From: Escherichia phage Gally
Length of the DNA: 38,682 nucleotides
Reading direction: 5' to 3' (one strand)
Sequence record: OV696608
Made by a program: the position numbers. Shown here in pieces: positions 15,001-18,000 of the stretch. The stretch's first letter is position 1, and every line of letters starts with the position of its first letter.

Positions 15001-18000
15001 TGAAATTTTGGATGGCTTTGATACAGCATCAGTCACTATCTGAACTAATTCTGAATTAAGAGAGCGGCCATTGGATTTGGCTCGCTGTTTTAGTTTTTCC
15101 TTTAATTCGTAAGGTAGCCGCAGATTAAATTGCGGGTCATCTCTTCCCATTCTTGATGCCTCGCTTTTGTGAGTGGATCGGCATCTTATTATCTGCTGGT
15201 TGCATCCTCAATAAGACCACAGTGGTCTCTTTGTTTGATTAATAATGCATCACTGTGGCAATGCTGCGGCGATTCCTTGTATCTGGAGCAAATTAAATGA
15301 CAGACATTACAGCCAATGTTGTAGTGAGTATGCCTTCGCAACTCTTCACTATGGCGCGTTCTTTTAAAGCGGTTGCCAATGGCAAAATTTATATCGGTAA
15401 AATTGACACTGACCCGGTAAATCCAGAAAACCAGATTCAGGTTTATGTAGAGAATGAAGATGGCTCTCACGTTCCTGTTGCACAGCCAATCATCATTAAC
15501 GCTGGCGGGTATCCGGTATATAACGGACAGATTGCCAAATTCGTAACTGTACAGGGCCATTCTATGGCTGTTTATGATGCGTATGGTGCGCAGCAGTTCT
15601 ATTTTCCTAATGTGCTGAAGTATGACCCTGATCAGTTACGGCAGCAATTAGAAGACCCGGATGGTTCTAAAAAATATCCAGAATTGCAGATTGCACGATG
15701 GCGTGATGACAAAGACGTTCGCGGTTGGGGGGCTATCAGTGATGGAATAACTGACGCTACTGAGGCATTCTCTAACGCAGGCTATAGAATGTTTGTTCCT
15801 GATGGCGATTTTGCAGTAAATACTCTCGAAGTTGATGTATCTTCTGCTCGAGGTATTGGGAGGATTGTTGCAGATAATGGCTCTCTTATTTCAGTTTCTC
15901 GTCTGCTTGAAACTGACAAACTTGCGCAGAGAAAAATGATGGAACCTTTTTTTGGTTTTCAGGGAGAAACAAACACAGAAATTTACCCTAATGCCAGAAA
16001 TGCGTTACAGGGGATCGCATATTGCCGTGTTAATGGCATTGAAAAACTATTTGTCACACAACGGCCTGTTGGGCCGACCTGGTCAGATAAAGAAAGAGTT
16101 CGTATTGTTGAGTTTAATCTTTATGATGATGGAAGGGTAGTAAACCATGTTGCGTATTCTCCAGAATTAAACCTTGGGCACGGTTTTGATCTTTCTGCCA
16201 TGGTGGAGAATGGTCAAGTATATTTATATACATCAAGTGTAACCAATTCAGGTGAAGATGGGGAGTCTGCAGGCAAAGGGTTTAGTAAAATAACTTGGCG
16301 AGGGGCAGAAACAACTCAGTCTGACGTAAAAAGTTATAATGTATGGGGGATTACTGGTAGCGGTCACCCATTTCAAGATTACAATCGTGCAGGAATTGCC
16401 ATTTCTTCTGACGGTCGTCTTTTAATAATGGTTAATACACCAAAGAGTGATGCCGCTAAACGAACTGTATTTATATACGATAAAATATCAATTGATAAAC
16501 TTGAAGATAAAACATTAGCAAACCCCATGTTTGTTTGGGAAATGAGCGACTCACCTTCTGAAGGCGCTTACTCTGTACAAGGTATTGCGTCTGATGGAAG
16601 ATATATACATATACTTAAGGGAGGGGCTAACGCTTTTGGAAAGCATCATATCTTTACATATGATTTAACAGGTAATTTACTAAGAAAATTAGATATCGAT
16701 GATGCAAGGTCGCAATATGGGCGCGATGGGTTGCTTAACCATCCAACTCTTGGGAATCCAGCCAGATTTGAGCCGGAAGGTCTAACTATTCGTGGTGAAG
16801 AAATAATTATAAGCTGCATAGAAACATGGAGGGCAGGAGCTAATATTGTAAACTGGCGTGGAAGAAGATGGGCTGCATCATCCATTGAGACTTCTGGAAT
16901 AATTGGTGTCCCTCCATCAAATGGCTCTTATTGGGTAGAAACAACCAAGGATGCAAATTCTGGAGATTGGAGTCCTGAAATAGATTATGGATGGGGAAGT
17001 AGCTATTCTCTTGAGAAAAAGACAATTTACTCTATACGACCAGCGACTGGTAACAACGATGATCAGAACCTTAATTCTGGCATAACCAATGCTTCAAGTA
17101 ATGCAGGTGTAGATGCCGGAGAAAGCGGGCGAAATATATCATTTAGATGGCGCAATGCTTTTAATATTGTTGCATTTAGCGAACGTCTTGGTGAATACTT
17201 CAACGCTATTATGTATGATAATAGCTCAAGACTAAGAATATACGATCAGCAAAACGGTAGTGATAACACTGTTTATGGCTCAATCCAGGCACTATTTACG
17301 TCATCATTTAAGGGATTGATTTTAAGGGGTAGGGGGGTATCAGCATCAAATAGTTCCTATATTAGGTTACATTCATCTGATGATCCAAACTACCCAAATT
17401 CGATCATTGAAGGAACAAGAACAGATGGAAGTTTTTCCAGGGAAACAGATTCAAACGGAACCACTACATTCGCATCGGACTCAGAGCACGAACCGTTGCG
17501 TATCAGAAGGGCTTCAGATGGTTTGTTGTTTGCATACGAGAAAGTAAGAGGTACAACTCTCTTTGGAATTTATAGAGGCTCCGGTTCACCTGAGGGTGTT
17601 GTGACCGCACCTCAGGGGTCAATGTATATTGATTATAATGGTGATTGGTATCAAAAGAAAACAGGAACAGGAAACACAGGATGGGTGTTAAAATAGACTA
17701 TTCTATTTTAATTGTTATCACTAAACCACCTCCATTGGAGGTGGTATTTTATTGTTTATATTTAAGATAACTAAGTGATTAGTAATAGAATATTATATCT
17801 TTATATCTATAGATTTTTATCACACTTACTCAGTTCATTTGTCATGTCAATAAGTTTATTTAAAAAGTTGATTAAGTTGAGTAATGGTTAAAGTTTTTAT
17901 ACGTTTCCATAGGCCATATTTGACAAAGGAGTAGTAATGGATATAACAGCTTTTCTTCACGCACTTTGCGCTGTTGTCGCACAGGCTCTGGTTGGTCTTT

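What the first reader, a model, noticed from the sequence alone, without database searches (positions are those of the whole stretch)
15151..15296. Orphan Mnt repressor with an Mnt-operator-like palindrome directly upstream of the tailspike gene
The Mnt homologue is intact, but the P22 partners arc and ant are absent. A perfect palindrome AGACCAC-A-GTGGTCT (15214-15228) sits 69 bp upstream of the tailspike start and 64 bp upstream of the mnt start. In P22, Omnt controls Pant. Here the same kind of site would place Mnt control on the tailspike leader and/or mnt autoregulation, an immI remnant possibly rewired.
Basis: partly seen in the sequence, partly recalled or inferred. Interest (0 to 1): 0.5.

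Follow-up and report, generated by a model that had tools for sequence, protein, structure and literature searches.

The report
Stand-alone Mnt repressor and its operator
This is the leftover half of a phage P22-type secondary immunity switch in the E. coli LF82 prophage Gally: an intact Mnt repressor gene with its own promoter and matching binding site, an arrangement already published for several relatives, with no sign that it has been rewired to drive the tailspike gene.

Summary
The window is E. coli LF82 and covers the late half of prophage Gally. An intact 83-aa Mnt gene (14899-15150, minus strand) and the tailspike gene (15297-17696) flank a 146-bp spacer. The spacer holds the perfect palindrome AGACCAC-A-GTGGTCT (15214-15228). 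Neither arc nor ant is present.

The palindrome is very probably the cognate Mnt operator:
- It lies one base from a Pmnt-like promoter (TTGAGG-17-TAAGAT), as Omnt does in P22.
- Its inner arms are nearly invariant across 69 related loci, while the centre base takes all four values.
- It co-varies with the recognition strand. Gln6 proteins (GRDDPQFNLR) pair with AAGACCAC-N-GTGGTC. His6 proteins (P22) pair with AGGTCCAC-N-GTGGACCT.
- Complete mnt-arc-ant regions with the Gln6/GACCAC specificity exist in other phage contigs.

The orphan gene is under purifying selection (dN/dS about 0.07-0.10), so it is not simply decaying.

The "rewired onto the tailspike" idea is not supported. Both Pant hexamers have decayed (TCGGCA-17-TGCATC). 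No rightward sigma-70-like promoter is found in the spacer, and this is the only operator copy in the prophage.

The mnt-only arrangement next to the tailspike is already published for ST64T, ST104, L and SE1. Gally's mnt has been annotated and deleted experimentally. The new points are the specificity variant and the evidence of selection. Interest is low to moderate.

The parts
14899..15150 (-). mnt gene: an 83-aa ribbon-helix-helix repressor with a C-terminal tetramerisation helix. Its recognition strand is GRDDPQFNLR, with Gln at the position of P22 His6.
   Evidence: ORF. Pfam Arc and Repressor_Mnt matches. PDB 1mnt and 1qey matches. dN/dS of 0.07-0.10 against the Salmonella orphan mnt genes. 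Annotated as GALLYPH_15 'Mnt repressor' in PMC9928086.
15213..15229 (.). 17-bp Mnt operator (Omnt variant) AAGACCAC-A-GTGGTCTC. The perfect part is 15214-15228 and the centre is at 15221.
   Evidence: locate it. It lies at a fixed 67 nt from the mnt ATG in Gln6-type loci. Inner arms are conserved and the centre is variable. The CAC-N-GTG core is shared across the family.
15183..15211 (-). Putative Pmnt. The -35 is TTGAGG (15211 to 15206), the spacer is 17 nt, and the -10 is TAAGAT (15188 to 15183). The inferred start is near 15176, which puts the operator centre at about -45.
   Evidence: This is the only promoter-like site found in the spacer on either strand. It occupies the same position as P22 TTGAGA-17-TATCAT, which lies inside the stretch annotated Pmnt/Pant in epsilon34. 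The start site is inferred, not mapped.
15178..15206 (+). Decayed remnant of Pant and the Arc operator: TCGGCA-17-TGCATC. It aligns without gaps to P22 TTGACA-17-TATATT.
   Evidence: Every complete immI examined keeps TTGACA. All 34 distinct orphan spacers carry TCGGCA.
15230..15249 (.). Junction segment with no P22 counterpart. It occupies the place of the arc-sar-ant-terminator block of P22.
   Evidence: Homology between orphan classes ends right after GTGGTC, and at least four different right-hand junction sequences exist.
15250..15296 (+). Conserved tailspike (gene 9) leader with the Shine-Dalgarno GGAG. It is homologous to the sequence downstream of the ant terminator in P22 and epsilon34.
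15297..17696 (+). Tailspike gene. It has a P22-type head-binding N-terminal domain and a different receptor-binding part.
   Evidence: Pfam Head_binding PF09008, E = 7.9e-67. Annotated as GALLYPH_16.
14888..14912 (.). Bidirectional terminator hairpin between the upstream lipoprotein gene (14463-14882, plus strand) and the 3' end of mnt.
   Evidence: -14.5 kcal/mol with a T-run on the plus strand and -12 kcal/mol on the minus strand. Terminators are annotated at the same place in phage L and epsilon34.

Best explanation
The spacer holds a self-contained mnt cassette: the mnt gene, its promoter Pmnt and its cognate 17-bp operator. This is what remains of a P22-type immI region (mnt-Omnt/Pant-arc-sar-ant) after the arc-to-ant block was lost and Pant decayed.

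Proposed mechanism:
- An Mnt tetramer binds the palindrome AAGACCAC-N-GTGGTC. Shown by sequence comparison only; binding is inferred.
- This Mnt is a specificity variant. Its recognition strand is GRDDPQFNLR (Gln6) where P22 has ARDDPHFNFR (His6). Its operator differs from P22's AGGTCCAC-N-GTGGACCT at symmetric outer positions.
- The operator abuts the Pmnt -35, with its centre at about -45. Its main effect in cis is therefore most likely autoregulation of mnt (inferred).
- The tailspike gene is adjacent only because of the deletion. It is expected to be expressed from the late operon, as in P22, not from an Mnt-controlled promoter (inferred from the lack of any rightward promoter).

The repressor is kept by selection, so it probably has a further target that I could not identify.
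For: 1. Same architecture as P22. The order -35 of Pmnt, one base, 17-bp palindrome aligns without gaps to P22: TGCATC-CTCAAT-AAGACCAC against TATATT-CTCAAT-AGGTCCAC.

2. Co-variation across 86 loci.
   - 69 loci encode a Gln6-type N-terminus (consensus MGRDDPQFNLRLPY).
   - 64 of them carry an exact CCAC-N-GTGG core and 60 an exact AAGACCAC-N-GTGGTC, always 67 nt from the ATG.
   - The other 5 have one base changed in the CCAC-N-GTGG core.
   - All 13 loci encoding MARDDPHFNFRMPM carry AGGTCCAC-N-GTGGACC.

3. Independent lineages with Mnt only 55-67% identical (MARDDPQFNLRM) carry the same GACCAC operator. There it lies next to an intact Pant (TTGACA-17-CATTAT), arc and ant.

4. Family-wide operators have the same geometry and a constant CAC-N-GTG core in Pluralibacter, Pectobacterium, Phlomobacter, Mesorhizobium and Pseudomonas relatives.

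5. In 34 distinct orphan spacers the inner arms are nearly invariant. The centre base takes all four values, as expected for a position the protein does not contact.

6. mnt is under purifying selection. dN/dS is 0.07-0.10 between the E. coli and Salmonella orphan genes, and 83 of 86 ORFs are full length.

7. Both Mnt domains are present.

8. Only a leftward promoter-like site is found in the spacer.

9. Published support.
   - The P22 Mnt half-site is GTGGACC (PMC2726951).
   - Pant and Pmnt are divergent and overlapping (PMC2724298).
   - A single Mnt residue change shifts the preferred bases at two adjacent operator positions (PMC1184061).
Against: - No binding or transcription experiment exists for this protein and site.
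- Pmnt matches only 8 of 12 consensus positions, and its start site is inferred.
- A repressor that regulates only itself should not be maintained by selection, so the explanation is incomplete about the selected function.
- Published RNA-seq shows tailspike transcripts rising about 8- to 16-fold in macrophages, together with mnt. The upstream late genes stay at background (PMC9928086 S1 table). Some rightward transcription that does not come from the late promoter therefore reaches the tailspike, and its origin is unknown.
- Gln6 does not by itself predict the GACCAC site. Phage N7 (VARNDPQFNVR) and Phlomobacter (ARDDPQFNFR) have other sites.
Confidence: 0.8

Rival explanations
1. Rewired control of the tailspike. 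Mnt bound at the palindrome would repress rightward transcription into the tailspike gene in the lysogen. It would do so by blocking a residual or new promoter, or by acting as a roadblock to transcripts coming from upstream.
For: - The operator lies 68 nt upstream of the tailspike ATG with no gene in between.
- In LF82 the tailspike is transcribed independently of the late genes, and its level changes together with mnt (PMC9928086).
- The epsilon34 paper notes that the P22 ant moron may modulate read-through of late transcripts into the tailspike gene, and that Mnt and Arc may take part (PMC2629481).
Against: - No rightward sigma-70-like promoter is found in the spacer, even at 7 of 12 matches.
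- Both Pant hexamers have decayed in all 34 distinct orphan spacers.
- mnt and tailspike RNA rise together rather than inversely.
- The sequence between the operator and the leader is not conserved between orphan classes. One locus even carries IS1 there.
- The adjacency is explained by deletion alone.
Confidence: 0.12
2. Immunity in trans. The orphan Mnt would be kept because it represses Pant of incoming P22-like phages whose ant gene is controlled by a GACCAC-type operator. That would protect the prophage C2 repressor from antirepressor. The operator in cis would serve only for autoregulation.
For: - This is the classical role of Mnt in P22 immI immunity (established P22 genetics; background in PMC8022706).
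- Purifying selection on orphan mnt.
- Phage contigs with ant under a GACCAC operator exist.
- The different specificity would explain why phage L behaves genetically as lacking immI when tested with P22 (this link is my inference).
Against: - No immI region closely related to the L086-type (GACCAC) region was found in 5,426 complete E. coli genomes or 50,697 phage records. The best matches there are 65-70% identical, and the four inspected (two phages, two E. coli genomes) are N7-type, P22-type or Kapi1-type.
- The hosts of the IMG/VR contigs are unknown.
Confidence: 0.2
3. The palindrome is not a protein site. It would be a chance palindrome, a weak intrinsic terminator for rightward transcripts, or merely a recombination joint.
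For: - The scan flags the palindrome followed by CTTTGTTTGA as terminator-like.
- Homology between orphan classes ends at its right edge.
- Palindromes of this size occur about 2.6 times per window by chance.
Against: - The hairpin is weak, at -8.7 kcal/mol and z = -1.8.
- The T-run is absent in the Salmonella orphans.
- The position is fixed relative to Pmnt.
- The site co-varies with the Mnt recognition strand, and the CAC-N-GTG core is shared across the family.
Confidence: 0.04

Closest known systems
Phage P22 Mnt repressor with its operator Omnt and promoter Pmnt (immI region)
   Same: - Two-domain Mnt protein, 76% identical.
- 17-bp palindromic operator with a CCAC-N-GTGG core.
- The operator is placed one base from the Pmnt -35.
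- Divergent orientation relative to the rightward genes.
   Different: - arc, sar, ant and a functional Pant are absent.
- The operator differs at symmetric outer positions: AAGACCAC against AGGTCCAC, or half-site GTGGTCT against GTGGACC.
- The residue equivalent to His6 is Gln.
mnt-only 'ant morons' of Salmonella phages ST64T, ST104, L, SE1, ST160 and SPN9CC, and Escherichia phage vB_EcoP-720R6
   Same: - The same orphan arrangement, with mnt directly upstream of the tailspike.
- The same N-terminal strand GRDDPQFNLRLPY and the same operator type and position.
- Described in PMC2629481 and PMC8022706.
   Different: - The window's spacer is 146 bp against 135 bp, with a different junction sequence.
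- The operator centre base differs (A against C or T), and the outermost right-arm base breaks the symmetry.
- The window's Mnt C-terminal helix is P22-like, whereas that of phage L is divergent.
- The published papers do not describe the operator. The phage L paper left open whether mnt is a decaying remnant.
Phage P22 Arc repressor
   Same: The recognition strand PQFNLR of the window's Mnt is identical to PQFNLR of Arc.
   Different: - The N-terminal arm is Mnt-like (RDDP).
- The Mnt tetramerisation helix is present.
- The site has Mnt geometry, not the 21-bp Arc operator with TAGA boxes.
Engineered Mnt position-6 variants and Arc/Mnt hybrids (Knight and Sauer 1989; Raumann et al. 1995; Silbaq et al. 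2002; Man et al. 2004). Recalled from memory and from reference lists only
   Same: A change at residue 6 goes with a change of preferred bases in the outer half-site.
   Different: These are laboratory variants. Here the protein-operator pair is natural. I could not read those papers to see what a Gln6 variant prefers.

Membership tests
Mnt repressor family (P22 Mnt) | N-terminal ribbon-helix-helix (Arc-like) DNA-binding domain | tested here: met
   Pfam PF03869, E = 2.8e-22, residues 3-50. PDB 1mnt, E = 2.8e-34.
Mnt repressor family (P22 Mnt) | C-terminal tetramerisation helix | tested here: met
   Pfam PF11423, E = 2.2e-18, residues 53-80. PDB 1qey, E = 3.1e-12.
Mnt repressor family (P22 Mnt) | Recognition-strand residues Arg2, His6, Asn8 and Arg10 (mature numbering) | tested here: not met
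   Arg2, Asn8 and Arg10 are kept. His6 is replaced by Gln (alignment). This marks a specificity variant and does not argue against homology.
Mnt repressor family (P22 Mnt) | 17-bp palindromic operator next to the -35 of its own promoter | tested here: met
Mnt repressor family (P22 Mnt) | Specific binding of the protein to that operator | not testable with these tools
   Needs EMSA or footprinting. Only co-variation evidence is available.
Complete immI region (mnt-arc-sar-ant) | arc gene transcribed divergently from mnt | tested here: not met
   tblastn finds only mnt itself.
Complete immI region (mnt-arc-sar-ant) | ant antirepressor gene | tested here: not met
   No significant Ant hit in the window. 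The other half of Gally carries only a Roi/KilAC-type gene in the nin region, with no operator copy.
Complete immI region (mnt-arc-sar-ant) | Strong rightward promoter Pant overlapped by Omnt and the Arc operator | tested here: not met
   TCGGCA-17-TGCATC here against TTGACA-17-TATATT in P22. No rightward hit in the scans.
ST64T/L-type mnt-only 'ant moron' | mnt lies between the gene-16 homologue and the tailspike, is adjacent to the tailspike, and has no arc or ant | tested here: met
   Described in PMC2629481 and PMC8022706.

The most novel reading that the evidence does not exclude
The stand-alone Mnt-operator cassette is not a relic but a selected module with a function of its own. One version is a trans-acting shield against antirepressor-carrying phages of the same (GACCAC) operator specificity. 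The other is a condition-responsive regulator of rightward transcription into the tailspike region: mnt is the most strongly macrophage-induced Gally gene. On either version, natural Mnt variants would form a small set of orthogonal repressor-operator pairs that differ by one 'master' residue.
Probability: 0.2. Interest if true: 0.5.

Novelty: new member of a known kind. Interest (0 to 1): 0.27.

Why it matters
- It answers, by computation, a question the phage L genome paper left open: whether the mnt-like gene of ant-less P22-like phages is a decaying remnant. It is conserved, selected and paired with a matching operator.
- It provides a natural altered-specificity Mnt-operator pair (Gln6 with GACCAC, against His6 with GGTCCAC). 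This could serve the long-standing quantitative work on Mnt recognition, or provide orthogonal repressor parts.
- Prophage Gally is studied experimentally. Its mnt is the most macrophage-induced gene and a delta-mnt strain exists. Knowing the single operator and the likely promoter gives a concrete test.
- It does not reveal a new kind of system.

Tried and rejected
- **Whole-window palindrome statistics.** The palindrome is not significant on this measure alone: 5 observed against 2.6 expected. Significance comes from context.
- **Rfam search of 13700-15700.** Nothing relevant; only a sub-threshold sroH hit on the terminator.
- **Terminator reading of the palindrome.** The hairpin is weak and the T-run is not conserved.
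- **Other Mnt targets in the prophage.** No second operator copy with up to 3 mismatches in the window or in the other half of Gally.
- **Bare operator pattern in viral contigs.** Mostly chance hits. It became useful only after filtering by a neighbouring mnt.
- **A simple Gln6-to-GACCAC code.** Rejected as a general rule, because phage N7 and Phlomobacter carry Gln6 with other sites.
- **Second CAC-T-GTGG core at 15251-15258.** Not conserved in relatives, so probably chance.
- **Quantitative Mnt papers.** PMC55749, PMC506813 and PMC140065 are not held in the library. What a Gln6 variant prefers in vitro could not be looked up.
- **GACCAC-type immI with ant in E. coli.** No L086-like region turned up, and the two loci inspected were of other types.

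Full report
**What is there**

The window is identical to E. coli LF82 (NC_011993) over the region tested. Matching the published coordinates (mnt at 1033910-1034161) places the window at LF82 1019012-1057693. Window positions 1-18624 are therefore the late half of the P22-like prophage Gally, and the rest is host DNA.

- mnt occupies 14899-15150 on the minus strand and encodes 83 aa.
- The tailspike gene starts at 15297.
- The 146-bp spacer contains AGACCAC-A-GTGGTCT at 15214-15228.
- Mnt has both the Arc-like ribbon-helix-helix domain and the Mnt tetramerisation helix. It matches PDB 1mnt and 1qey.
- Neither arc nor ant is present in the window.

Taken alone, a 7+1+7 palindrome is not remarkable at the scale of the window: 5 observed against 2.6 expected. 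Only about 0.01 is expected in this spacer.

**Is the palindrome the Mnt operator?**

Four lines of sequence evidence say yes.

1. *Position.* In P22 the order is Pant -10 (TATATT), then CTCAAT, then AGGTCCAC-G-GTGGACCT. On the other strand, TCTCAA reads as the Pmnt -35, TTGAGA. The window aligns without gaps: TGCATC, then CTCAAT, then AAGACCAC-A-GTGGTCTC. A leftward TTGAGG-17-TAAGAT sits at the place of P22's TTGAGA-17-TATCAT. In epsilon34 this stretch is annotated Pmnt/Pant and arcO. Pant and Pmnt are described as divergent, overlapping promoters (PMC2724298).

2. *Co-variation.* I analysed the window, 80 IMG/VR loci and five published phages.
   - 69 loci encode a Gln6-type N-terminus (consensus MGRDDPQFNLRLPY).
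   - 64 of them carry an exact CCAC-N-GTGG core and 60 an exact AAGACCAC-N-GTGGTC, always 67 nt from the ATG.
   - The other 5 have one base changed in the CCAC-N-GTGG core.
   - All 13 loci encoding MARDDPHFNFRMPM carry AGGTCCAC-N-GTGGACC.
   - Four further His6 loci have mnt in a different context, downstream of another gene, and no such site.
   - The published P22 half-site is GTGGACC (PMC2726951). The window's is GTGGTCT.

3. *Independent lineages.* About ten IMG/VR contigs encode an Mnt only 55-67% identical to the window's (MARDDPQFNLRM...). They carry the same AAGACCAC-N-GTGGTC site, there with an intact Pant (TTGACA-17-CATTAT), arc and ant. The window's type therefore derives from a complete immI region of a second specificity.

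4. *Family-wide pattern.* Relatives in other genera have 15-17-bp palindromes with a constant CAC-N-GTG core and variable outer positions.
   - Pluralibacter and Pectobacterium: GGTCCAC.
   - Phlomobacter: ATATCAC.
   - Mesorhizobium: TGACGCAC.
   - Pseudomonas: TAAAGCAC.

Within the 34 distinct orphan spacers, the inner six bases of each arm are almost invariant. The centre base takes all four values.

**Specificity**

The window's recognition strand PQFNLR is identical to that of Arc. The arm RDDP and the rest of the protein are Mnt-like. The only difference from P22 Mnt among the classical contact positions is His6 to Gln.

A single Mnt residue change is reported to shift the preferred bases at two adjacent operator positions (PMC1184061). 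From memory, that residue is His6 and the positions correspond to the A and C of GTGGACC. The window differs at that A. I could not read the primary papers.

Gln6 is not a sufficient code. Phage N7 and Phlomobacter have Gln6 with other sites.

**Is it a decaying relic?**

It is not. dN/dS between the window's mnt and the Salmonella orphan mnt genes of the ST160/SE1 type is 0.07-0.10. 83 of 86 ORFs are full length.

The protein is a mosaic. Its DNA-binding domain is of the L/ST64T type and its C-terminal helix of the P22/epsilon34 type.

One relative, in Symbiopectobacterium, shows what decay looks like: an altered N-terminus and a degraded palindrome.

**Is the tailspike under Mnt control?**

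Several results argue against it.
- Pant is TTGACA-17-TATATT (11 of 12) in P22 and epsilon34. It is TCGGCA-17-TGCATC in the window and TCGGCA-17-TATATC in phage L.
- All complete immI regions examined keep TTGACA. All orphans have TCGGCA.
- The Arc operator is gone.
- The consensus scan finds no promoter in the spacer. A lenient scan (at least 7 of 12, with A2 and T6) finds no rightward candidate.
- The sequence between the operator and the conserved tailspike leader differs between orphan classes. One locus carries IS1 there.
- The adjacency is fully explained by loss of the arc-sar-ant-terminator block. Homology to P22 and epsilon34 resumes about 47 nt before the tailspike ATG.
- No other operator copy exists in the whole prophage.

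One published observation keeps the question open. In LF82 inside macrophages, mnt rises 40-fold and the tailspike roughly 8- to 16-fold. The upstream injection genes stay at background (PMC9928086). Some rightward transcription that does not come from the late promoter therefore reaches the tailspike.

Its origin could be leak through the terminator after the highly expressed lipoprotein gene at 14463-14882, or an unrecognised promoter. The two RNAs rise together, which is not what simple repression predicts. The whole AT-rich right end of the prophage behaves as one induced block. A delta-mnt strain showed no macrophage-survival phenotype.

**What is already known**

[quoted passage not shown] It raises a possible role of the region in read-through into the tailspike gene (PMC2629481).
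- The phage L paper notes the lack of sieA, ant and arc. [quoted passage not shown]
- Gally's mnt is annotated and has been deleted (PMC9928086).
- The papers I could read do not describe the operator variant, its pairing with Gln6, the purifying selection, or the existence of complete immI regions with this specificity.

**Verdict**

The immI-remnant reading is right. The rewiring reading is unsupported.

The best explanation is a conserved Mnt, Omnt and Pmnt cassette of a second operator specificity, whose selected target remains unidentified. Immunity in trans against phages with the same operator type is the most attractive candidate. It lacks a known target phage in E. coli.

This is a new member of a known kind. 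It has modest interest for specialists and a clear experimental path.

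Noticed in passing
window 15221 (centre of the palindrome): The centre base is hypervariable. All four bases occur among 34 distinct related spacers, several of them otherwise 104/105 identical to the window, while the flanking arms are nearly invariant. This could be a mutational hot spot at the tip of a hairpin, or an unconstrained position that the protein does not contact.
   Followed up: partly
window 15228-15250; loci L031, L035, L001, L032: Homology between orphan classes stops right after GTGGTC. At least four different junction sequences follow. 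One locus has IS1 inserted between the operator and the tailspike. One class has about 280 extra bp and a tailspike with a different N-terminus.
   Followed up: partly
window 14899-15150: The Mnt protein is a mosaic. The DNA-binding half is of the L/ST64T type. The C-terminal tetramerisation helix is nearly identical to that of P22 and epsilon34, whereas the helix of phage L is divergent.
   Followed up: yes
loci L086, L230-L232, L236, L237, L239, L241, L243, L244: These are complete immI regions (mnt, Pant, arc, ant) with a Gln6 Mnt and a GACCAC-type operator, from phage contigs of unknown host. Nothing closely related to the L086 region appeared among 5,426 complete E. coli genomes or 50,697 phage records.
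   Followed up: partly
window about 13800-18600: The right end of prophage Gally is AT-rich: GC is 0.32-0.45 there against more than 0.5 in the late operon. It holds two lipoprotein-like morons (13843-14358 on the minus strand, 14463-14882 on the plus strand), mnt, the tailspike and a 95-aa membrane ORF (17937-18224). This is the block reported as induced 6- to 40-fold in macrophages.
   Followed up: no
window 15251-15258: A second CAC-T-GTGG core lies inside a weak hairpin in the tailspike leader, 33 bp from the operator centre. It is not conserved in relatives and is probably chance.
   Followed up: partly
locus L208 (Symbiopectobacterium purcellii): An orphan mnt sits next to a tailspike, with an altered N-terminus (MGRYDPQ...), an extended C-terminus and a degraded palindrome (AAGACCGCCGTGATAC). 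It is an example of the cassette actually decaying.
   Followed up: no
loci L071-L074: A His6-type mnt has no P22-type operator upstream. It appears to lie downstream of another gene on the same strand, with a divergent ant (56% identity) further on. This is a different immI layout.
   Followed up: no
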